DNA from: a virus
Lineage: Duplodnaviria > Heunggongvirae > Uroviricota > Caudoviricetes
Direction: 5' to 3' (one strand)
Virus record (IMG/VR): IMGVR_UViG_2778261121_000005
Coordinates: 1 to 43,385 of that record
DNA: 43,385 bases
The position numbers and the translations under genes are program-made. Within the stretch, counting starts at the first letter, position 1; every line of letters starts with the position of its first letter. Below, one piece after another: positions 2,406 through 24,417 of the stretch. The notes under the pieces are model-generated. The model made no database searches. It saw only the letters and a list, made by a program, of their open reading frames with translations, and was not told where the DNA came from.

Positions 2406-4463
2406 TCATGAAACTTCCCCATTGGTTGAAAATATGGCTCCTCCAACTCCAAGTGTATTTCGTGTTGTGCTCAACCTAAGAGGGCTGGAGTCAGAATTAG
2501 AATATCCTGTAGCAGAAATAAAAGATCCTCCACTAATAGTCAACTGCGGAACATCGGCTATATCTGAATAAGTTCTGTCAGCAACAGTATTATTTATAGC
2601 CACATGTGATCCAAAAAAACTTCTTATTGTTTGGTTTTTAACTTTACTTCCTTCAATGGTTATCCTACTACCACAGTCGGCAATAAATCCTGAATCTGCA
2701 TCCAGCGTTGCATTCATAAAAGAAGCTTCAGATCTCTCTACATCAATCCATCTAATATCTTTTGTGGGATTTGCACCAAATACATGACAAATATTAGAGT
2801 TAAACCTTACTCCATCTTGGAGGTGCATTAATTTTTTTATATCTGTACCCCATAGCCTTGGAAAATTAACAGATGCTCCTGCATGGCAATCAAATCCCAA
2901 CTCAGCCCCTGAGATATCTACAGCCTTTCCTGAAATAACAGCACCAGTGTCTGCATTAACGGCTGTTCCACAATTGCGCATATCATTACCAGCAACATCA
3001 ACACAACCCGCACCATCAATACGCACACCAAGTGCACATCCATAAAAACCTTTTTCAATATTTGGTTCAAGGACTTTACCACTTGTTTCTGCATCACTTT
3101 CTTCAACGTCATGTCGTCTTGCATCAACATATGCTGTATGAATGCAGGTTAATCCACGATATGAGCAATGTATAGTTTTATGGTCGCGTATATTAACATT
3201 TGAACCATCTCTTACATTCCACCCTATATAACAATAGCTTGCACTTGACCCCTGAAAATCTGCTTTAACATTATAAATACAATTAACTGACGCAACCGTA
3301 CTCTCTGTGCACCGTTCAAACTTGCTTACAGGCATTGATGCCTTGACATTATTTACCAGTTGCAGGGAAGAGTATCTGCTATAAGAAAAATCACATACGT
3401 AATACCCTTCTGGCATATATGCAGCAACACTTTCCTCATCAGGAGCACATCCGGTATGATATGCACTAATTTTTGCACCAAAACTACCATGAATTCCAAC
3501 GTAGAACTTTCGAGCACCTGAATACGGATAGAAATTAAGTTCAGCTTTTTGAGTTACAATAAATGCACAAACATCGCTATCATCTCTATTTTCTTCGATC
3601 TGAATAGCAAATACAGGACTTTTTGCTGCATCGCAAATGTAAAATAAATACTTGTATTCGTAATACGTTCTAACGGTTTTAGTAAACAAACGAGTGTCAG
3701 AGAAAACCACTGAGTCTTCTGATATTATTTTAATCCATGATAAGTCACATCCTGCTGAAATTTCTATTTGCTCATTGAGCACAAAACCGGAAAGAATTTT
3801 AATTATGCAAAAGCCAATGCCATTTTTCCATAGTGGACGCAGTGCAACAGCCGAGTTTAGAGCATCACTAATAGATTTAAAATTACCATATTCCCCAACT
3901 GTTATTGTGAATGCATACCTGGAATTAAATACTGCGGCACTATCTCCAGAGTTAATAGCTGCAGATATCATGTCATAATTTGATATAAAATCATTTGGCG
4001 TGATTATTTCTGCGTTTTTATTGTGCTGGGTTCTAAGTTTTGAATTTACATGAACACTTTTAACTGCAATACGGGAGTCGTCAACAAGTATTTCATTACC
4101 CTCTGTTGCTAACTCTTGTCTTAACTGATCCGGGTCATACTTCAGCACATTCGGAAAATAGAACTGCTGTGAACCATATGCATCATAAACAGCCATAGAA
4201 TGACCCTGCACAGTAACGAACTTGGCAATCTGTCCGTTATATACCGGATATCCAGCAGCGTTAATGATGATTGGTTGCGAAACAGGAACGTGAGAACCGT
4301 CTTCGTTTTCCACATAAACCTGAATCTGGTTTTCAGGATTTACCGGGTCAGTGTCAATTTTACCGATATAAATTTTTCCATTGGCTACGGCTTTAAAAGA
4401 ACGAGCCATAGTGAAGAGTTGCGAAGGCATACTCACTACAACATTGGCTGTAATGTCTGTCAT
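2406..4463 (-). CDS. tailspike protein with P22 gp9-type head-binding N-terminal domain and divergent receptor-binding domain
   Basis: N-terminal ~110 aa ([11 protein letters not shown]...[33 protein letters not shown]...[14 protein letters not shown]...NVLKYDPDQ) closely matches the P22 tailspike head-binding domain as I recall it; the rest differs from P22. Confidence 0.9.
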
Positions 4464-4595
4464 TTAATTTGCTCCAGATACAAGGAATCGCCGCAGCATG
4501 GCTACGGTTGGTATTTGTTGCATACCGAAATGGTACTATTGTTGATTTGTACAGTAGGTTTTACGATGCCATTCCACCCATTTGGTGAGGCATTG

Positions 4596-4867: not shown

Positions 4868-5089
4868 TTAGTTATCAAAAAGTCCGTACGTTTCTTCTTC
4901 TTCAGGTGTAAGGGGAAGAATCTCTACTCTATCTATAGATACCTTTTCAATGTACCCATGAGGTCTACTTAAAATTAAAGCTCTCTCATGCCACAGAACT
5001 CCAAGAATGTGATACCTTCCAGCATCGCCTTTTACCCTGGCCCTTCCTTTGATTCTTGGCGGCATAATGCCATATTTTTTCTTTGCCAT
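4868..5089 (-). CDS. hypothetical small protein (73 aa)
   Basis: ATG overlaps the stop of the upstream gene (TAATG), suggesting translational coupling in the ant operon. Confidence 0.5.
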   Translation of the reverse strand: MAKKKYGIMPPRIKGRARVKGDAGRYHILGVLWHERALILSRPHGYIEKVSIDRVEILPLTPEEEETYGLFDN

Positions 5090-5817
5090 TATGCAACATT
5101 ACTCCCATGAATCAGGTGTTGTAGTGCTTTAACACCTTCCGCATTGTAGCGGAATGCTTCCACCTGTTTGCTGGAATGCGCAGATTTATCCAGGAAGAAC
5201 TTACCGTACTGCTCAGTTTTGAGGTTGTTTGCGTTAGCAATGCGACCAATCTTGTTGGCCGTTACTCCAAGCTGCTCTGCAACCTCCCCTGCTGAGTAGT
5301 AATGCTCTTCTATTGCTGGAAGAGGTATTGCATTAAAACCAACGATCGGGTTGATTATGCTTGCTGCCGCAGTCTGCTTTGCTTCCGGCGCAAGATTTGG
5401 CATCAGATCGAACAGATTGGTAACAGCTTCAACCGTCATTTTCAGTGTTCGCGCTTGACGATACTCAATAAGTCCACTCGCTGATTTACCGCTTTTAATG
5501 TGCTCTTCTTGCATACTTTCAAGTTGGTCTACCAGTGAGCGGCGAACGGCTTTTGACTCGCGAGCGGCAACTCGCAATGCTTGCTTGATTGACATCTCAA
5601 TGATAACCATCGAAGTTTTGTTCGCTTTTTGCACTACACTTTTTGTGTAGTGCTCTCCATCCAATTCATCTTCAATTTTCTCGATGAATTTGTTATTACG
5701 AACCTCCGGCTCACCGCACTGTCTACGAGCCTGATTTACCATCTCAAGCAGGCGCTGGCTGTCAATGGTTTTATCCGTGACAACGGATCCGATGTTTGCT
5801 ACATTCTTCAAAGTCAT
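5089..5817 (-). CDS. antirepressor-like protein (Rha-like N-terminus, KilA-C/ANT-like C-terminus)
   Basis: 242 aa from internal ATG with SD AAGGAA; C-terminal segment YYSAGEVAEQLGVTANKIGRIANANNL resembles KilAC-type domains. Domain assignment is from memory. Confidence 0.5.
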   Translation of the reverse strand: MTLKNVANIGSVVTDKTIDSQRLLEMVNQARRQCGEPEVRNNKFIEKIEDELDGEHYTKSVVQKANKTSMVIIEMSIKQALRVAARESKAVRRSLVDQLESMQEEHIKSGKSASGLIEYRQARTLKMTVEAVTNLFDLMPNLAPEAKQTAAASIINPIVGFNAIPLPAIEEHYYSAGEVAEQLGVTANKIGRIANANNLKTEQYGKFFLDKSAHSSKQVEAFRYNAEGVKALQHLIHGSNVA

Positions 5818-5905
5818 TAGGCATTCCTTATGTGGTAGTAAGGGTGTGACATAGGCCGCCAGCAGCACACTGGCGGTTTTCTTTTTGCGCCGTCCGGCGC
5901 ACCAA

Positions 5906-6532
5906 TCAATGAATCCATTCCTCGCCGCGAAGTTTTGCCAGCATTGGCTGAGCGTTCTTTACGACAAAATTGTTGGTATCAAGATTCTTCATTTCACGAA
6001 GAAGTGATTTCTTGGTTTCTTCTGACATGTAGCGAGTCTCATATGCAATATCGTAAATCCTTCCTGAAAGCTCAGAACCAATTTGCTTCATTCCTGGGTA
6101 GATGTGTTTGCACATTTGTTGACTCTTCTCCATCCACAATTGTAAGTAGCAGAGATTAACCAGTTCTTCGTCAGTAAACTGTTTTGCAATCGGTGAGCAT
6201 TCTGCCTGCCGATCCAAAATATCCAGCACCCAGCGGCGGAACTCTTTGGCTACCGGAGTGCGAGCAAACATCGCGATTAGGTGGGCACCGCGTAGTGAGA
6301 AAACTCGCACTTTTTTGCGATAATTTCCTGAGGTACTCACTTCGAGTACCTGAGTCATTCCGGCGCTAAACTCATCGTTATACTTGTTATAAATCATTGT
6401 TACTGCACGACTATTTGCGTATTTAAGTGCAGATGCAATATTAGATGATGTAAACCAAACACCATGCATATCACGGGTGGGCACCAACTCAACTCCGTGG
6501 AAGTTGTAATCTGATTTTGCTACAATATTCAT
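5906..6532 (-). CDS. ant: antirepressor-like protein with Bro-N-type N-terminal domain
   Basis: 208 aa from ATG with SD AAGGAAA; N-terminus (NFHGVELVPTRDMHGVWFTSSNIASALKY) resembles Bro-N domains; immediately downstream of the arc-like gene as in P22 immI. Confidence 0.6.
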   Translation of the reverse strand: MNIVAKSDYNFHGVELVPTRDMHGVWFTSSNIASALKYANSRAVTMIYNKYNDEFSAGMTQVLEVSTSGNYRKKVRVFSLRGAHLIAMFARTPVAKEFRRWVLDILDRQAECSPIAKQFTDEELVNLCYLQLWMEKSQQMCKHIYPGMKQIGSELSGRIYDIAYETRYMSEETKKSLLREMKNLDTNNFVVKNAQPMLAKLRGEEWIH

Positions 6533-6605
6533 GTTAGTTTCCTTGCATACGGTTACTGACATAGAGGCCCGGTTTGTGTTCGCGCACTTCCGGGCTTCAC
6601 TATTT

Positions 6606-6779
6606 TTACTGGGCATTAGCTCTTTCCTCTCTCAGGCTTTTAGCCAGTCGCTGCACAATCGCAGAGTTGATAGAAATTCCATCCATTTCAGCAACACGTC
6701 TAATCTCCTCCTTCATTCGCGCTGGCAAACGAAGCTGGAAACTTTGACTTTTACGACCAGTGTAAAGCACATCTTTCAT
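6606..6779 (-). CDS. arc: Arc-like ribbon-helix-helix repressor
   Basis: 57 aa from ATG with SD GGGAGGA; FQLRLPARMKEEIRRVAEMDGISINSAIVQRL matches the RHH beta-strand/helix pattern. Confidence 0.7.
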   Translation of the reverse strand: MKDVLYTGRKSQSFQLRLPARMKEEIRRVAEMDGISINSAIVQRLAKSLREERANAQ

Positions 6780-6890
6780 AAGTAATCCTCCCACAATGAT
6801 ACCAACTTGGTTCTAGAACCAATTTAACACCATTTATTTTGATGTCAAGTTGGTGCTATTGTTTAGCGAACATCTTTACGTTGAGGTCAT

Positions 6891-7211
6891 ATGAGCAAGT
6901 TCCCTAGTCATGAAATGGATAGGTTCAATATCAGGCTTCCTGCAGGAATGCGGGATGCTATAGCTGAACGAGCCAAACGTAACGGCAGATCAATGAACTC
7001 AGAGATTGTTCAGATACTGGAAGATGCCTTGAATGCAGAAAATACACTCGGGGAAATAGCAGATAAAATCAACAGCGTCTCGGTTCCGCTAAATGTTGAT
7101 GCGCTAGTTCAACTTCAAGCCCAGGTTATCGCCATGCAAAAAGAAATACAGGAAAAGTTCAGAGAGCAGAACGAAAAGTTGAGAGAACTGCTAAACAAAA
7201 AACCCACCTGA
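6891..7211 (+). CDS. ribbon-helix-helix (Arc/Mnt/MetJ-type) transcriptional regulator, divergent from arc-ant
   Basis: 106 aa; FNIRLPAGMRDAIAERAKRNGRSMNSEIVQILEDAL is an RHH signature; C-terminal coiled-coil-like tail. Confidence 0.75.
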   Translation: MSKFPSHEMDRFNIRLPAGMRDAIAERAKRNGRSMNSEIVQILEDALNAENTLGEIADKINSVSVPLNVDALVQLQAQVIAMQKEIQEKFREQNEKLRELLNKKPT

Positions 7212-7236
7212 CGGTGGGTTAATTTTTGCCTTTTTT
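7197..7236 (+). terminator. rho-independent terminator (possibly bidirectional)
   Basis: AACCCACC-tgac-GGTGGGTT stem followed by T-rich run; A-run on the other side. Confidence 0.7.
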
Positions 7237-7309
7237 GGACCATATTGACTACTCATAAAATGAGATCAATATTTAATCGCCCAATAACGGGTGCATGTTG
7301 AGGTATATC

Positions 7310-7489
7310 ATGGCGAAAAAACCAGGTGAAAACACAGGAAAAAACGGCGGAATATACCAAGAAGTTGGCCCGCGCGGAGGTAAGAAAGACAATTTTGCCA
7401 CCGTCAAGGACAACGAAAGGCTTCCGCCAACAACAAAGCCAGGTCATGGCTGGGTATTAGATAAGCGAACTCCAGACAGCAAAAAGTAA
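7310..7489 (+). CDS. small hydrophilic Gly/Lys-rich protein (59 aa) with its own promoter and terminator
   Basis: SD GAGGT 5 nt before ATG; upstream TTGACT-N17-AATATT with inverted repeat CTCATAAAATGAG in the spacer; terminator right after the stop. Confidence 0.5.
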   Translation: MAKKPGENTGKNGGIYQEVGPRGGKKDNFATVKDNERLPPTTKPGHGWVLDKRTPDSKK

Positions 7490-7495
7490 TAATCA

Positions 7496-7519
7496 AGCCG
7501 GGTCACTCCGGCTTTTTGA
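7496..7519 (+). terminator. rho-independent terminator
   Basis: AGCCGG-gtcact-CCGGCT followed by TTTTTG. Confidence 0.65.
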
Positions 7520-7868
7520 TATGTCGCTCGCAGAACTCAACAAGCCTGCTCATTAAGTAGCAGTAAGTCTCGTTAGCTCTTCCTGGTTCAACATCAACGC
7601 CGACCCTTGAGCAGATATCGAATGCCATGTGAGCGCACTCATGGGCAATAGTAGATAGTTTGCCATTGAACACACCTATCACATGCAAAACACCATTCTC
7701 GCTGCTCATTGTATGAGACGCTCCGTTGGCATCCGAGTCCTGCACGTCCACGCCAAGTTTTTGATGCAGGCGTTGCCATTCTGGAAAGTCTCTGCAAAAC
7801 ACAATCGTACCGCTCTCAAAGAGCGGTACGAGCATCTTTGGTACGTTTCCAATGTTAACTTTTTTCAT
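7503..7868 (-). CDS. hypothetical protein with HExxH zinc-metallopeptidase-like motif
   Basis: 121 aa from internal ATG; contains IAHECAHMAF (HExxH) with downstream acidic residues. Confidence 0.5.
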   Translation of the reverse strand: MKKVNIGNVPKMLVPLFESGTIVFCRDFPEWQRLHQKLGVDVQDSDANGASHTMSSENGVLHVIGVFNGKLSTIAHECAHMAFDICSRVGVDVEPGRANETYCYLMSRLVEFCERHIKKPE

Positions 7869-7898
7869 GGTATCCTGCACAAAACTAAGGAGGTTGGT

Positions 7899-8126
7899 GT
7901 GAAGCGATGGTTCCTCATAATTACTGTTTTCGCGATCATTTACACTATTTTCCCTGCATTAAAAGCACCAATGCAAATAATTTCACTAGCAATAATTGCA
8001 ATTGGTGCTTTCATTGCAGTATCCGTACTTGTGTTTAAGGTTTTAAAGTTTTTAGTTTGGCTATCAAAAGATGATGGATGCAAAGTTCATCAAGAAAAAG
8101 AAGGCAAAATAACCAAAGTTGACTAA
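7899..8126 (+). CDS. small membrane protein (two predicted TM helices)
   Basis: GTG start 5 nt after a perfect AAGGAGG; hydrophobic stretches WFLIITVFAIIYTIF and IISLAIIAIGAFIAVSVLVF; converges on the ejection-protein gene with a 3-nt stop overlap. Confidence 0.55.
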   Translation: MKRWFLIITVFAIIYTIFPALKAPMQIISLAIIAIGAFIAVSVLVFKVLKFLVWLSKDDGCKVHQEKEGKITKVD

Positions 8127-10246
8127 CTGTCACTAACGAGCCATGTAATAATCCCAGTGCGAGCAATGGTTTTTGCTTCATCTGTTGATAGGGTTTTCTC
8201 CCATCTCTTAAATGCCCCAGATTGCATCAGTTTCCTTTCTATTGCGCGTCTCACTTCTGCTCTGTCTACTGGTGCGTTTTGCAGGCGAAATAACATTGAT
8301 TTAAACTCAGGAGAAGACAGTAGAGCATCAGCAGCCTTTATCCTGCTTGTTTTCCCTGACATCAATGCGGACGTTATCACCCCTGTAGCACCTACACCAG
8401 GAAGACCAGATAAGCTTGTAACACCTTCCGCCGCAGCAGCTTTTGAGGCTATTCCATAAATTTTTGCTAGACTACCCTTTTCCTTCAGAAAGTTATTAAC
8501 TTGCTGATCCACAAGGCTGCTAGCATACTGCTTACCAGTATTGAGTCTATTCATAGCCTTAGCTGCTTGATAAATCGTATCAAGGCGCTTTGATGCATCT
8601 GTGCCAATAGCATCACGGAGAGCCTTCATATTGGCCCCATTGCGTGACATTCCGTTATACCATTTTACAAATCCATCAACCCCTAATTGCTGACCTGGTG
8701 ATTTAGCATAGCTGGTAAATGCTTTATTCATTGAGGTGAGCGCAACTTCCTGCCGCATATCCTTTGGAATTGACTTCATTAATTGCCTAAAGTCACCACC
8801 GTTTCCTTTTGCCATATTAACAACGGCACTTTCAACTTTTGGAATTGCTGATTGCTGAAGTTTTCTACCCAAAACGGTTACGGCATCATCTTCAATGGAT
8901 TTTCGTTTTTTTACCAACTCCTTACCAAGCGTCCATAACTCCCCTGCGCCATATTTTTCTGCGACAGCCTGTTGGTCATCTGTTATGGCTGCATATAACT
9001 TTTTAAGAACACCTGTTTCTTCATCCTTGAATGGGCCAGAGCCTTTGCCAATAGCTTGCCCAACCTGCTTTCTAGCGAGATCTAAACGCCCATACGTTGG
9101 CAAGGTGTTTGGATCAAGTCGGTTCAATGTCCGCTTCATTATTGGAGATAATTCATCAATTCCACCTATGTCATCAGCAAAATCCTCTAAAAAATTCAAT
9201 GTATTGGTTGCCTCAATACGGTCTCTTACTGGAACCTTTTCGGCAATTTTGTTGTAGATGTTATCTGACTGATTTTGTAATGATGAAATGGTTTTATCAA
9301 AATTATCTGCAAGCCTGTCAGAAACCAGTTGCTTATCAAGGTTTCCCCCAAATGAAGTTATCATTTCATCAGCTTTTCTTCCTAATTCAGTAATAAAGCG
9401 CTTATGCGCCTCACTAATCTCTGTTCCAGGGAGACTTGCCACTGCATTATCAAGAGCCCTGACAGCAGGATTATTAGAGATCATTCCTGGAGTGGCATAA
9501 TTTTCCAGTTCTAGCTCACGGATGGCATTTATCGCGTTAAAATCAGGATTAACTTCATCAGCGAAACCTTGAATAGCTCGTTGCCCGCCAATAAATTTAT
9601 TATCCATTGCGCCAGCAGCTTTCTTTAACGTTGCTTTAGATGATTTACTCCCCATCCCTACGGATGAGCGATAAATATCCCCGGCACTATTTTTAATTTT
9701 TCCTGCAATCTTCCCAAGCGCTGGACCAACAATCTCTGCTACAGGGCCAGCCACAGCGCCAATAGCAGCGCCGGAAGCAACATCGCTATTTGTTCCATTG
9801 GCTACAATAGCCCCTTCTCCAGCACCAAGCCCTGCGGCGGCAGCCAGCCTTGCCGCCCCTTTCGGAACCTGAGAAATAATCCCACCACCACTAACAAATG
9901 GCGCTGCTTGTCCAACGAACTCACCAACATCTTGTGCGGTTGATGGTTTTGCCGCTAACTTCTGCTGTAGAGACTGAATTGCGGCTTGCTCTTCTGGTGT
10001 CATATCCTGAAATAGACCAACACCTTTACCAACATCCATCAATCCACTGAGAACGCCATACATAAAACGGTCGAAACCGTTAGCATTATTAACAACATTT
10101 TCCTGTCTGGAATTTTCCTCTGGTGAAACCAAAGGTGATTGCTGCTGCTCTGGTTGGGAATCAAGCACAAAACCATCAGGAAGCTGTGAGTTATCAGGCT
10201 GATTATCGAGAACAAATCCTTCGGGTAAACCTACATCGGTTGCCAT
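8123..10246 (-). CDS. ejection (DNA transfer) protein, P22 gp16-like by synteny
   Basis: 707 aa, last gene of the 7-20-16 type block downstream of gp20-like; Gly/Ala-rich segment; N-terminal tandem LP(E/D)GFVLD(N/S)QP repeats. Confidence 0.6.
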
Positions 10247-23506: not shown

Positions 23507-23944
23507 TCATCGAAGGCATTGCGTCCTGATGTATTCCTGCAGGTAGTTAACCTGCGCGGTTATCCTGTCGATTCCACTTCTGAGACGGTAATAATTGAGT
23601 TCAGCATCTGCTGTAAGTCTTGGGCTTTCTCCATCGCCCATGCTGCTGGCTCCGGTCGTTGACTTTGCACAGGTGGCGGCGACTTGCAGGCGCTTACGCC
23701 CAGCAGAAACATCAGCACGGAGACTTTCGATAGTCGCGTTAGCATCAGCAAGTTCCTTTGTATATCTTGCGTCGAGTTCTGCTACATCACGTTGACGCTT
23801 CTGCATGTCAGCGATTGTGGATGTGGCTTTATCGCGCTGTTCTTTGTAGGCGATGGCGTTATCACGGTAATGATTAACCGCCCATGACAGGCAGACGATG
23901 ATGCAGATAACCAGAGCGGAGATAATCGCGGTTACTCTGCTCAT
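23507..23944 (-). CDS. Rz: i-spanin Rz
   Basis: 145 aa; N-terminal TM segment then coiled coil; immediately after the endolysin; contains the embedded Rz1 ORF. Confidence 0.85.
23560..23751 (-). CDS. Rz1: o-spanin Rz1 lipoprotein, embedded in the +1 frame of Rz
   Basis: 63 aa; lipobox LLGVSAC followed by proline-rich [14 protein letters not shown]; C-terminus resembles lambda Rz1. Confidence 0.8.
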
Positions 23945-24417
23945 ACCTCAATCTCTCTGACCGTTCCACCTGCTTCTTTGAATTTTGCAATCAGGCTGTC
24001 TGCCTTATGCTCGAACTGACAATAACCAGCACCCGGCAGTGAAGCCCAGATATTGCTGCAACGGTCGATTGCCTGACGGATATCGCCGCGATCAATCATC
24101 GGTAAAGCGCCACGCTCTTTAATCTGTTGCAGTGCCACAGCGTCCTGGCTTTTCGGAGAGAAGTCTTTCAGGCCAAGCTGCTTACGATAGGCATCCCACC
24201 AACGGGAAAGAAGCTGGTAACGTCCGGCTGCTGTTGATTTGAGTTTGGGGTTTAGCGTGACAAGTTTGCGAGGGTGATCGGAGTAATCAGTGAATAGCTC
24301 TCCGCCAACAATGACGTCATAACCATGATTTCTGGTTTTCTGCCGTCCGTTATCAGTTCCCTCTGACCACGCCAGCATATCGAGGAACGCCTTACGTTGA
24401 TTATTGATTTCCACCAT
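23941..24417 (-). CDS. R: endolysin (lambda R lytic transglycosylase)
   Basis: 158 aa, near-identical to lambda R as recalled ([52 protein letters not shown]...). Confidence 0.95.

What the first reader, a model, noticed from the sequence alone, without database searches (positions are those of the whole stretch)
7250..8126. Self-contained accessory island at the sieA position: promoter/operator-driven small protein, HExxH mini-protein and a two-TM membrane protein
Between the last ejection-protein gene and the immI region, where P22 carries superinfection-exclusion genes, there are three unrelated small genes. One is a 59-aa Gly/Lys-rich protein (7310..7489) with its own promoter-like element, a palindrome (CTCATAAAATGAG) inside the promoter spacer, and its own terminator. 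One is a 121-aa protein with a clear HExxH motif (IAHECAHMAF) on the opposite strand. One is a 75-aa two-TM membrane protein with a perfect AAGGAGG Shine-Dalgarno and GTG start. Independent transcription signals inside a structural operon are the signature of morons. A putative metallopeptidase plus a small membrane protein could be an exclusion or abortive-infection pair, or an antirepressor protease. I do not recognise any of the three as a characterised protein.
Basis: partly seen in the sequence, partly recalled or inferred. Interest (0 to 1): 0.72.

Follow-up and report, generated by a model that had tools for sequence, protein, structure and literature searches.

The report
Three unrelated accessory genes, P22 sieA region
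The flagged segment is not one island but three separately inherited accessory units of a P22-like E. coli prophage, all real genes, none with a demonstrated function: the known P22 gene orf59a, an uncharacterised late-strand mini HExxH protein that usually travels with it, and a small two-pass membrane protein sitting in the slot where P22 carries its exclusion gene sieA.

Summary
The spacer palindrome is at chance level.

Window 7200-7901 is 97% identical to phage P22, from the mnt 3' end to the sieA start codon.
- **ORF1** is P22 orf59a. It belongs to the YjzC-like family and has a promoter conserved across lineages plus its own terminator.
- **ORF2** (121 aa) is not annotated in the P22 reference records. 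It belongs to PHROG 1365 (551 clusters). Across 80 representatives only H76, E77, H80 and E100 are invariant, and the predicted topology is zincin-like. It always points with the late operon. Its usual home is between the lysis and terminase genes.
- **orf59a and ORF2** form a convergent pair in at least 8 diverged lineages, but the pairing is not obligatory.
- **ORF3** (75 aa, two transmembrane segments) replaces sieA exactly at the start codon, downstream of a conserved about 25-bp linker. That linker precedes 11 unrelated envelope-protein genes in other P22-like genomes.

No function is shown for any of the three. Interest is moderate.

The parts
7201..7236 (+). Intrinsic terminator hairpin plus T-run. 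It overlaps the stop codon of the 106-aa Mnt-like (Arc-family) gene at 6891..7211 and isolates orf59a from mnt transcription.
   Evidence: -16.1 kcal/mol, z -3.5. The P22 version of the hairpin is imperfect.
7245..7273 (+). orf59a promoter-like element, TTGACT-17-AATATT.
   Evidence: The -35 TTGACT and the -10 region CAATATT are conserved in Rosenbergiella and Morganella loci while the spacer varies.
7252..7264 (.). Palindrome CTCATAAAATGAG in the promoter spacer. Judged to be a chance feature, not an operator.
7278..7293 (+). Small 5'-UTR inverted repeat, CGCCC-N6-GGGTG. Its role is unknown.
   Evidence: One search shows a compensatory change in Morganella (GCTC...GAGC). Folding energy alone is not significant (z -0.5).
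7310..7489 (+). orf59a: a 59-aa basic, Gly/Lys-rich protein of the YjzC-like family (PHROG 3202), predicted to be all-beta.
   Evidence: 98% identical to P22 orf59a. Pfam YjzC gives 19.4 bits against a cut-off of 25. It aligns without breaks to PF14168-positive proteins. AlphaFold pLDDT is 86.
7495..7514 (.). Hairpin between the convergent orf59a and HExxH genes. It is a good terminator for orf59a (followed by UUUUUGAU) and a poor one in the late direction. It corresponds to the P22 feature annotated as the mnt terminator.
7503..7868 (-). A 121-aa HExxH protein of PHROG 1365. H76-E77-x-x-H80 is encoded at 7629-7643 and E100 at 7569-7571. Predicted to be a minimal zincin/gluzincin-like metallopeptidase, co-oriented with the late operon.
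7805..7831 (-). Perfect 12-bp-stem hairpin inside the HExxH ORF, across the codons for VPLFESGT. It is specific to this lineage.
   Evidence: -20.6 kcal/mol here, -12.3 in P22, absent in distant homologues.
7869..7892 (+). Conserved linker core GGTATCCTGCnCAAAACTAAGGAG. TGgTATCCT (7868-7876) looks like an extended -10 element, and the Shine-Dalgarno AAGGAGG lies at 7887-7893. On the other strand the same bases supply the Shine-Dalgarno (CAGGAT) and ATG of the HExxH gene.
   Evidence: The P22 record places its annotated sieA promoter (PsieA; called putative in PMC10883804) just upstream, equivalent to window 7839-7869.
7899..8126 (+). A 75-aa protein with two transmembrane segments (PHROG 7294). 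It is the cassette occupying the sieA slot, and its stop overlaps the stop of gene 16 by 4 nt.
8123..10246 (-). A 707-aa allele of ejection-protein gene 16. It accompanied the 75-aa gene in every context examined.
   Evidence: In two E. coli genomes this gene is cut short next to an IS3 element.

Best explanation
The segment is a mosaic junction in the hypervariable accessory region between ejection gene 16 and immI of a P22-like E. coli prophage. It holds three separately inherited units.

**(a) orf59a.** This is a moron-type unit made of its own sigma-70 promoter, a short 5' UTR, a 59-aa YjzC-family small basic beta protein, and an intrinsic terminator. It lies on the strand used by the prophage-expressed genes mnt and sieA. 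I infer that it is made in the lysogen.

**(b) The 121-aa PHROG-1365 gene.** It has an invariant HExxH followed by a Glu 20 residues later, and I infer that it is a soluble minimal zinc metallopeptidase. It has no promoter of its own and is read as part of the late operon, on the transcript that runs from gene 16 on to the tailspike gene. It would therefore be made only during lytic growth and cut a specific, still unknown, protein target. It is an accessory gene, not an essential one. In several diverged phage lineages it travels with orf59a as a convergent pair sharing one hairpin. That suggests, but does not prove, that the small protein is its regulator, inhibitor or substrate.

**(c) The 75-aa protein with two transmembrane segments.** It is expressed from a conserved linker of about 25 bp that supplies an extended -10-like element, the Shine-Dalgarno sequence and the start position. 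The same linker drives sieA in P22 and at least nine other unrelated envelope-protein genes elsewhere. I infer that it is a prophage-expressed inner-membrane protein that, like SieA, acts at the cell envelope, most plausibly against DNA delivery by incoming P22-like phages.

**Shown:** gene identities, conservation, motif invariance, orientation, linkage patterns and recombination joints.

**Inferred:** expression timing, zinc binding and proteolysis, and the exclusion role.
For: **Identity with P22**
- Window 7200-7901 is 97% identical to P22 from the mnt 3' end through orf59a, the mnt terminator and PsieA to the sieA start. The identity ends at the GTG.

**orf59a**
- It falls in PHROG 3202 and aligns with PF14168 members.
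- Its promoter hexamers are conserved across genera while the spacer is free to vary. It is flanked by terminators.

**HExxH gene**
- There are 32 close homologues and 551 clusters at 50% identity.
- In 80 representatives at 22-44% identity, the only invariant columns are H76, E77, H80 and E100. All 80 match PHROG 1365.
- The AlphaFold model (pLDDT 83) has the order strand-strand-helix-strand-strand, then a helix carrying HExxH, then a helix starting at E100.
- It is co-oriented with late genes in every context examined: P22-like, Klebsiella and Rosenbergiella tail modules, Xenorhabdus downstream of the lysis genes, and about 20-39 contigs with the order holin, lysozyme, Rz/Rz1, HExxH gene, DUF2560 or PF18894, terminase.

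**Pairing with orf59a**
- 73 of 80 IMG/VR contigs carrying an orf59a-like gene have the HExxH gene convergent within 150 bp. One of the other seven ends 3 bp after the gene.
- The paired lineages diverge to 56%, 40% and 19% identity in the HExxH protein, while the small protein stays at 61-81%.

**Slot**
- The linker is conserved in the window, P22, E212, ST160 and E. coli prophages, with different coding sequences after it.
- It precedes 11 unrelated ORF families in 74 of 80 contigs. Ten have an N-terminal hydrophobic peak (mean hydropathy at least 1.6 over 17 residues) that reads as a signal peptide, lipobox or transmembrane segment; the eleventh (99 aa, MKRWVIGAFCFLISGLAQSQ) peaks at 1.38 but also starts with a signal-peptide-like sequence.

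**Literature**
[quoted passage not shown] - Another exclusion determinant, STnc6030, maps to the same gene 16 to gene 9 interval in BTP1 (PMC7067206).
Against: - No expression data were available for any of the three genes.
- The orf59a fold matches nothing.
- The pairing is not obligatory. 75 of 77 distant PHROG-1365 genes have no YjzC neighbour. HK620 has a nonsense codon in orf59a beside an intact HExxH gene. About 10 of 80 P22-like contigs replace orf59a with a 74-aa membrane ORF. Some orf59a-like genes stand alone.
- The 75-aa protein has no similarity to SieA and no homologues below about 82% identity. Substitution counts are too few to show purifying selection.
- Its constant linkage to one gene 16 allele is explained by the overlapping stop codons. 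Other slot cassettes mix freely with gp16 types.
Confidence: 0.6

Rival explanations
1. The segment is one self-contained island in which the HExxH metallopeptidase and the membrane protein work together as an exclusion or abortive-infection pair.
For: The two genes are adjacent and divergent, only 30 bp apart. Both are uncharacterised, and the locus is known for exclusion genes (PMC10883804).
Against: - The HExxH gene is found next to 11 different slot genes, and the 75-aa gene fills the slot in only 6 of 74 contigs.
- The 75-aa gene occurs without the HExxH gene in E212, EC.P3, E. coli LC-1302-2020 and the very common P0038 arrangement.
- The two genes lie on opposite strands with opposite expected timing.
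- The combination seen in this window occurs in only 4 of 5,426 E. coli genomes.
Confidence: 0.04
2. The HExxH protein and orf59a form a true two-component module. Either a late-made protease destroys a lysogen-made small protein (self-immunity for a prophage-expressed factor), or a protease is held in check by a cognate small inhibitor, in the manner of a toxin-antitoxin pair.
For: - The convergent adjacency, with a gap of 13-30 bp and a shared hairpin, is kept in at least 8 diverged lineages and at three different genomic positions.
- The small partner is much better conserved than the HExxH protein.
- Phage-borne orf59a-like genes almost always have the partner: 73 of 80 contigs, one of the seven exceptions being cut at the contig end.
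- Paired members fall on several deep branches of a neighbour-joining tree.
Against: - Most PHROG-1365 genes have no such neighbour (75 of 77).
- HK620 keeps an intact HExxH gene beside a nonsense-mutated orf59a.
- orf59a is swapped for an unrelated gene in about 10 of 80 contigs.
- Tight physical linkage alone could keep two adjacent genes together.
- The YjzC family is widespread in bacteria without this partner.
Confidence: 0.3
3. The 121-aa protein is not a peptidase. The conserved His/Glu residues bind a metal for another purpose, such as a structural zinc site, a different hydrolase, or a nucleic-acid-directed enzyme like the SprT/Wss1 group.
For: There is no significant match to any peptidase family or fold. 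Weak hits also include non-protease HExxH families, for example TIGR04267 in 9 of 80 members. The nearest Pfam family, SprT-like, acts on DNA-bound proteins (PMC4559962).
Against: The invariant set is exactly H-E-x-x-H plus a Glu 19-20 residues downstream. By established knowledge of thermolysin-type zincins (not tested here), that is the gluzincin catalytic and metal-binding signature. The catalytic Glu next to the first His is also invariant. The predicted secondary-structure order fits the zincin core.
Confidence: 0.2
4. The 75-aa membrane protein has a role other than exclusion of incoming phage. It could be a holin or antiholin-like lysis modulator, or a lysogenic-conversion factor that changes host envelope physiology.
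For: It has the size and two-transmembrane topology of class II holins, with a very weak PHROG holin hit (E 0.06). Other slot cassettes include YobH-like and lipoprotein genes with no known exclusion role.
Against: It is not in the lysis cassette. It lies on the prophage-expressed strand, in the slot of a proven exclusion gene, behind the same expression linker. The holin hit is far from significant.
Confidence: 0.3
5. The HExxH protein is an immI-linked protease that cleaves Mnt, Arc or the main repressor, in the manner of ImmA/IrrE.
For: It lies next to the immI genes in P22-like phages. ImmA-type proteases also carry HExxH.
Against: - The gene is intact in HK620, where the tailspike gene starts about 420 bp downstream of it with no mnt gene between.
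- In other phages its usual site is between Rz/Rz1 and terminase.
- Only 1 of 80 family members gives even a weak Peptidase_M78 hit, at E 0.099.
- It has no adjacent Xre-type partner.
Confidence: 0.03

Closest known systems
Phage P22 orf59a (BK000583 / NC_002371; NP_059640)
   Same: ORF1 is the same gene: 98% protein identity, the same position after mnt and the same downstream hairpin.
   Different: Here the upstream repressor gene is a different, 106-aa Mnt-like allele followed by a stronger terminator. The P22 record assigns the downstream terminator to mnt and annotates no separate orf59a promoter. No function is known.
YjzC-like protein family (Pfam PF14168)
   Same: About 60 aa, with the shared core PG...G.YQEVGPRGG...TV...LPPT..PG. 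The alignment to PF14168-positive proteins has no breaks. UniRef names homologues at 76-81% identity 'YjzC family protein'.
   Different: The Pfam score is 19.4 bits, below the cut-off of 25. The phage branch is usually paired with the HExxH gene, whereas the bacterial family is not. The family itself has no known function.
Gluzincin and minigluzincin metallopeptidases (thermolysin-type HExxH plus a downstream Glu; minimal scaffolds; SprT/Wss1 group, PMC4559962)
   Same: An invariant HExxH plus a Glu 19-20 residues later at the start of the next helix. It is small (about 120 aa) and soluble, with the strand and helix order of the zincin core. Its weak recurrent similarity is to SprT-like.
   Different: There is no significant sequence or fold match. 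It is a separate family, PHROG 1365. Zinc binding, activity and substrate are all unknown.
P22 SieA superinfection exclusion protein (PMC10883804)
   Same: The 75-aa gene occupies the same slot between genes 16 and 9, on the same strand. It shares the upstream sequence, the Shine-Dalgarno and the GTG start, and is also predicted to be a membrane protein.
   Different: There is no sequence similarity. It has 75 aa and two transmembrane segments, against 164 aa and about four in SieA. It lacks the FxRYPxEAxxFNK motif and belongs to a different PHROG. No exclusion phenotype has been tested.
Morons such as HK97 gp15 (PMC3594210)
   Same: orf59a and the slot gene are small units with their own signals, inserted among late-region genes on the opposite strand. 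Both are variable between related phages. By recollection (not tested here), HK97 gp15 is a small membrane protein that blocks DNA entry.
   Different: Expression in the lysogen was not tested here. The HExxH gene does not fit the moron definition, because it has no signals of its own and is in late orientation.
PhageMetallopep (Pfam PF18894), putative phage metallopeptidase
   Same: It is another small phage HExxH protein, and it lies directly next to PHROG-1365 genes in about 20 distant contigs and in metagenome locus L009.
   Different: It is not homologous. A profile comparison aligns only the 10 residues around HExxH, with probability 1.4%.

Membership tests
YjzC-like (PF14168), for orf59a | Pfam score at or above the gathering threshold of 25 bits | tested here: not met
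   19.4 bits, E 0.0013.
YjzC-like (PF14168), for orf59a | Length of about 60 aa and the conserved core motif, continuous with accepted members | tested here: met
   The homologue series runs without a break into PF14168-positive proteins. G6, G14, G20, P21, R22, G23 and P39 are invariant in 50 sequences.
Zincin/gluzincin metallopeptidase, for the 121-aa protein | HExxH motif conserved in the family | tested here: met
   H76, E77 and H80 are invariant in 21 close homologues and in 80 distant representatives.
Zincin/gluzincin metallopeptidase, for the 121-aa protein | Third metal ligand Glu on the following helix, about 18-25 residues after the motif | tested here: met
   E100 is invariant at +20, or +19 in the Xenorhabdus homologue, and lies at the start of helix 100-116.
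Zincin/gluzincin metallopeptidase, for the 121-aa protein | Zincin fold, meaning significant structural similarity to a solved zincin | tested here: inconclusive
Zincin/gluzincin metallopeptidase, for the 121-aa protein | Zinc binding and peptide-bond hydrolysis | not testable with these tools
   This needs purified protein.
SprT-like (PF10263) | Pfam match at the family threshold | tested here: not met
   The window protein has no hit. 13 of 80 relatives give weak hits, with a best E-value of 1e-4.
ImmA/IrrE (Peptidase_M78) anti-repressor protease | M78 domain, together with an adjacent cognate Xre-type repressor | tested here: not met
   1 of 80 members hits at E 0.099. The neighbours are orf59a and slot genes, or lysis and terminase genes.
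SieA family, for the 75-aa protein | Sequence homology to SieA types A-C, including the FxRYPxEAxxFNK motif (PMC10883804) | tested here: not met
   It falls in PHROG 7294, not 7745, and does not align beyond the start codon.
SieA family, for the 75-aa protein | Position between genes 16 and 9, on the prophage-expressed strand | tested here: met
SieA family, for the 75-aa protein | Blocks DNA injection by P22-like phages | not testable with these tools
   This needs a plating assay.
Moron (PMC3594210), for orf59a | Own promoter and terminator; presence varies between related phages | tested here: met
   Promoter hexamers are conserved across genera. Terminators lie on both sides. orf59a is replaced or absent in some relatives.
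Moron (PMC3594210), for orf59a | Expressed from the repressed prophage | not testable with these tools
   No per-gene transcript data were reachable. PMC8575938 holds only figures.
Type II toxin-antitoxin pair, for HExxH plus orf59a | Co-directional operon, with the toxin not tolerated without the antitoxin | tested here: not met
   The genes are convergent. HK620 has a stop codon in orf59a beside an intact HExxH gene. Most family members have no partner.
Class II holin, for the 75-aa protein | Located in the lysis cassette, with a significant match to a holin family | tested here: not met
   The gene lies outside the lysis cassette at 23507-24417. The only holin hit is PHROG 14607 at E 0.06.

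The most novel reading that the evidence does not exclude
The late-made mini metallopeptidase and the lysogen-made YjzC-like protein could form a convergently transcribed two-state switch that is present in P22 itself. In that reading the prophage makes a small factor that acts on the host or on incoming phages, and the phage removes or neutralises it with a dedicated protease when it enters lytic growth. Such a protease-based self-immunity module has not been described. Separately, the conserved linker may be a natural plug-in expression slot through which P22-like phages exchange many unrelated envelope proteins that exclude rival phages.
Probability: 0.12. Interest if true: 0.75.

Novelty: new member of a known kind. 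Interest (0 to 1): 0.4.

Why it matters
- **An unannotated gene in a model phage.** P22 is one of the best-studied phages, yet its reference records leave a conserved 121-aa ORF with a textbook metal-site signature unannotated. That ORF defines a family of several hundred phage protein clusters with no known role.
- **A cheap genetic test.** Its frequent pairing with orf59a gives a concrete hypothesis that can be tested in P22 genetics.
- **A list of candidate exclusion genes.** The sieA position turns out to be a slot with a conserved expression linker and at least 11 interchangeable envelope-protein genes. This gives a ready list of candidate exclusion or envelope-modifying proteins to test against P22-like phages. 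It also extends the picture of SieA diversity in PMC10883804.
- **Limits.** None of this overturns current understanding, and no function is shown.

Tried and rejected
- **Known families for the three proteins.** Pfam, NCBIfam and PADLOC gave nothing significant except the sub-threshold YjzC hit.
- **PDB sequence searches with family profiles.** None or only marginal hits.
- **Homology between the 121-aa family and PF18894.** Rejected.
- **The P22 pid ORFan locus as the identity of the unannotated ORF.** Rejected: pid lies between orf25 and orf80 (PMC8835761).
- **Per-gene P22 transcript data.** Not held (PMC8575938).
- **The spacer palindrome as an operator.** Rejected: chance level and not conserved.
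- **The 12-bp hairpin inside the HExxH ORF as a conserved element.** Rejected: it is lineage-specific.
- **dN/dS for the 75-aa ORF.** Too few substitutions. The differences cluster in the first 17 codons and remain hydrophobic.
- **Functional coupling of the 75-aa gene to its gp16 allele.** The linkage is better explained by the overlapping stop codons, since other cassettes mix with gp16 types.
- **BTP1 record.** Not in the collection, so the STnc6030 idea could not be checked.
Full report
**What the window is.** The window is a complete P22-like (Lederbergvirus-type) prophage with its late operon on the minus strand. The order on that strand is terminase, portal, coat, the ejection genes 7, 20 and 16, then the tailspike gene at 2406..4463. 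Its nearest relatives are the E. coli phages E212, EC.P3, JEP4 and HK620. Only 4 of 5,426 complete E. coli genomes hold at least 80% of window 6880-8400 in one stretch. The best, strain SBF22, is 98.9% identical.

**The observation.**
- PGAP annotates all three ORFs as hypothetical proteins in SBF22: WP_001085430 (59 aa), WP_000757526 (121 aa) and WP_000832789 (75 aa).
- Hydropathy confirms two hydrophobic segments in the 75-aa protein.
- The consensus scan finds TTGACT-17-AATATT at 7245-7273. It also finds terminator-like hairpins at 7201-7220 and 7495-7514, both with folding z-scores of about -3.5.
- The palindrome in the promoter spacer is the weak point. Such palindromes are not enriched in the region. 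The P22 and HK620 copies carry a mismatch. In Rosenbergiella and Morganella homologues the -35 and -10 are kept while the spacer is entirely different.

**Identity with P22.**
- Window 7200-7901 is 97% identical to phage P22, from the last codons of mnt through orf59a, the hairpin annotated as the mnt terminator and the annotated sieA promoter (PsieA) to the sieA start codon.
- ORF1 is therefore P22 orf59a, with 98% protein identity.
- ORF2 lies in a stretch where the P22 reference records BK000583 and NC_002371 annotate no gene. Other P22-like records do annotate it, for example as SE1 orf64 or an ST160 hypothetical protein.
- All three proteins fall in existing PHROG families of unknown function: 3202, 1365 and 7294.

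**orf59a.**
- Its homologue series (108 hits) runs continuously into proteins that carry Pfam PF14168 (YjzC-like). UniRef labels relatives at 76-81% identity 'YjzC family protein'. The window protein itself scores just under the Pfam cut-off.
- The conserved promoter hexamers and the terminators on both sides fit the moron definition (PMC3594210). The gene lies on the same strand as mnt and sieA. The YjzC family has no known function.

**The HExxH protein.**
- This is a real and large family. There are 32 close homologues, down to 43% identity, and 551 clusters at 50% identity in the exhaustive profile search. Nearly all members are stand-alone proteins of 110-140 aa.
- In an alignment of 80 representatives at 22-44% identity to the window protein, the only invariant columns are H76, E77, H80 and E100. 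The Xenorhabdus homologue, at 19% identity, also keeps HECxH with a Glu at +19.
- From established knowledge of thermolysin-type zincins, HExxH with a Glu about 20 residues downstream is the gluzincin metal-site signature. This point rests on recalled knowledge and was not tested here.
- The AlphaFold model (pLDDT 83) has two strands, a helix and two more strands, followed by a helix carrying HExxH and a helix starting at E100. That is the order of the zincin core.
- None of this is significant, and Foldseek found nothing. I therefore call the protein zincin-like and do not file it in any peptidase family.

**Context of the HExxH gene.**
- Its start codon sits back to back with the slot gene's start, 30 bp away, so it has no room for a promoter of its own.
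- It is co-oriented with late genes wherever it was found:
  - between gene 16 and immI in P22-like prophages of Salmonella, E. coli and Morganella;
  - between the tail-chaperone region and the tape-measure gene in Klebsiella and Rosenbergiella prophages;
  - after the lysis cassette in Xenorhabdus.
- In the bulk of distant family members the order is holin, lysozyme, Rz/Rz1, the HExxH gene, then DUF2560 or the PF18894 'PhageMetallopep' gene, then small and large terminase and portal.
- It is intact in HK620, where no mnt gene lies between it and the tailspike gene. This argues against an antirepressor-protease role. Many P22-like phages lack it altogether, so it is accessory.

**The pair.**
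- Every diverged homologue I looked at first was followed, after 13-30 bp, by a convergent 59-60-aa gene that is an orf59a homologue. These were from Klebsiella, Rosenbergiella, a metagenome contig, Morganella and Xenorhabdus.
- In IMG/VR, 73 of 80 contigs with an orf59a-like gene have the HExxH gene convergent within 150 bp; one of the other seven ends 3 bp after the gene. They fall into three lineages, with HExxH identity of 100%, 56% and 40%.
- The small protein is always the better conserved of the two.
- The linkage is asymmetric and not obligatory. 75 of 77 distant HExxH genes have no such neighbour. HK620 carries E18-to-stop in orf59a beside an intact HExxH gene. About 10 of 80 P22-like contigs replace orf59a with a 74-aa membrane ORF. 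Some orf59a-like genes stand alone.
- A simple toxin-antitoxin model is therefore rejected. A looser functional link, as regulator, inhibitor or substrate, stays open at about 0.3. Hitch-hiking of two tightly adjacent genes is the alternative.

**The sieA slot.**
- Aligning the window with P22, E212 and ST160 shows a shared stretch, TGGTATCCTGC(A/T)CAAAACTAAGGAGGTTGG(T/C)GTG. After it each genome has a different coding sequence.
- In E212 and in E. coli prophages the sequence upstream of this linker also differs. The linker is therefore a recombination joint on both sides.
- In 74 of 80 IMG/VR contigs the core GGTATCCTGCnCAAAACTAAGGAG is followed by one of 11 unrelated ORF families:

| Slot ORF family | Contigs |
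|---|---|
| 161-aa lipoprotein | 18 |
| 109-aa single-transmembrane coiled-coil type A (as in ST160) | 10 |
| 129-aa exported protein | 10 |
| 109-aa single-transmembrane coiled-coil type B (as in HK620) | 8 |
| SieA | 8 |
| 75-aa protein (this window) | 6 |
| 62-aa protein | 4 |
| 106-aa protein | 4 |
| YobH-like protein | 2 |
| 99-aa protein | 2 |
| 149-aa protein | 2 |

- Each starts with a signal-peptide-like, lipobox or transmembrane sequence; ten of the eleven reach a mean hydropathy of at least 1.6 over 17 residues, and the 99-aa family peaks at 1.38.
- TGgTATCCT fits the extended -10 pattern. This is my reading of the consensus and is untested. P22's annotated PsieA lies just upstream.
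- The 75-aa protein is confined to E. coli and Salmonella at 82% identity or more. It accompanies the 707-aa gene 16 allele in every context examined, and their stop codons overlap. Other cassettes mix with several gp16 types, so this linkage is probably physical rather than functional.
- The literature bears on function. [quoted passage not shown] Only a third of P22-like phages carry sieA (PMC10883804). In BTP1 a different exclusion determinant, STnc6030, maps to this same interval (PMC7067206).
- An envelope-acting, exclusion-type role for the 75-aa protein is therefore the most plausible reading. It rests on position and topology only.

**Verdict.**
Its central interpretation, that one island holds a metallopeptidase-plus-membrane-protein pair, is not supported.
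- The segment is a mosaic of three accessory units in a known hypervariable region.
- The points worth following up are:
  - the unannotated mini-zincin gene in P22;
  - its recurrent pairing with orf59a;
  - the linker-driven cassette slot.

Noticed in passing
window 7805-7831 (-): A perfect 12-bp-stem hairpin (-20.6 kcal/mol) followed by UUGUGUUU lies inside the HExxH ORF, across the conserved VPLFESGT codons. It is weaker in P22 and ST160 and absent in distant homologues. It could pause or terminate late transcription when antitermination is off.
   Followed up: partly
L039 (HK620) 4380-4560, equivalent to window 7310-7489: The orf59a copy in HK620 carries a GAA-to-TAA change at codon 18, a premature stop. 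The adjacent HExxH protein is 100% identical to the window's.
   Followed up: yes
L028 4380-4604 (-), and about 9 other IMG/VR contigs: In these P22-like contigs orf59a is replaced, exactly from its stop codon onwards, by an unrelated 74-aa ORF with two hydrophobic segments (MISAILSVLLASLFIGVV...). The orf59a position is therefore a second small cassette site.
   Followed up: partly
L109-L184, e.g. L127 3376-4026, L130 3240-3617: In distant lambdoid contigs the PHROG-1365 gene sits between Rz/Rz1 and the terminase genes. It lies directly next to a DUF2560 gene and/or a second HExxH protein of Pfam PF18894 (PhageMetallopep), so two different putative metallopeptidases occur in tandem.
   Followed up: partly
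window 5089-7211: The immI region here differs from that of P22. It has a 106-aa Mnt-like Arc-family protein (83 aa in P22), a 62-aa Arc-like protein, a Bro-N/P22_AR_C antirepressor of 236 aa, and a further 259-aa ORF with no family match.
   Followed up: no
L020, L021, L022 (E. coli prophages), between mnt and gene 16: The same interval carries other cargo in other prophages. Examples are a PIN-domain protein with a 239-aa partner, a YafO toxin with a neighbouring gene, and a ClpP-like protease with a P63C-domain protein.
   Followed up: no
L005 5603-6816 and L020 4630 onwards: In E. coli strains SBF22 and LC-1302-2020 an IS3-family element lies next to a truncated or pseudogene copy of the 707-aa gene 16 allele, so those prophages are probably defective for DNA delivery.
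   Followed up: no
L023 3420-3728 (the commonest variant of the 75-aa gene): The most widespread form (P0038, listed in more than 1,000 collection blocks) starts with ATG and differs only in its first 17 residues, all hydrophobic swaps. It lacks the linker and follows a co-directional array of mnt, a 92-aa gene and a 186-aa gene. A second recombination joint seems to lie inside the first transmembrane segment.
   Followed up: partly
Literature: BTP1 STnc6030 (PMC7067206): The 786-nt 'non-coding' exclusion RNA of BTP1 lies in this same gene 16 to gene 9 interval. Its escape mutations change the gp16-homologue protein, and ORFs were screened only above 60 aa. It might encode a small membrane protein like the slot cassettes seen here.
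   Followed up: no
window 7278-7293: A short inverted repeat just downstream of the orf59a -10 (CGCCC-N6-GGGTG) keeps its pairing through a compensatory change in Morganella (GCTC...GAGC) and in shorter form in Klebsiella. It could be an RNA stability hairpin or a protein-binding site.
   Followed up: partly
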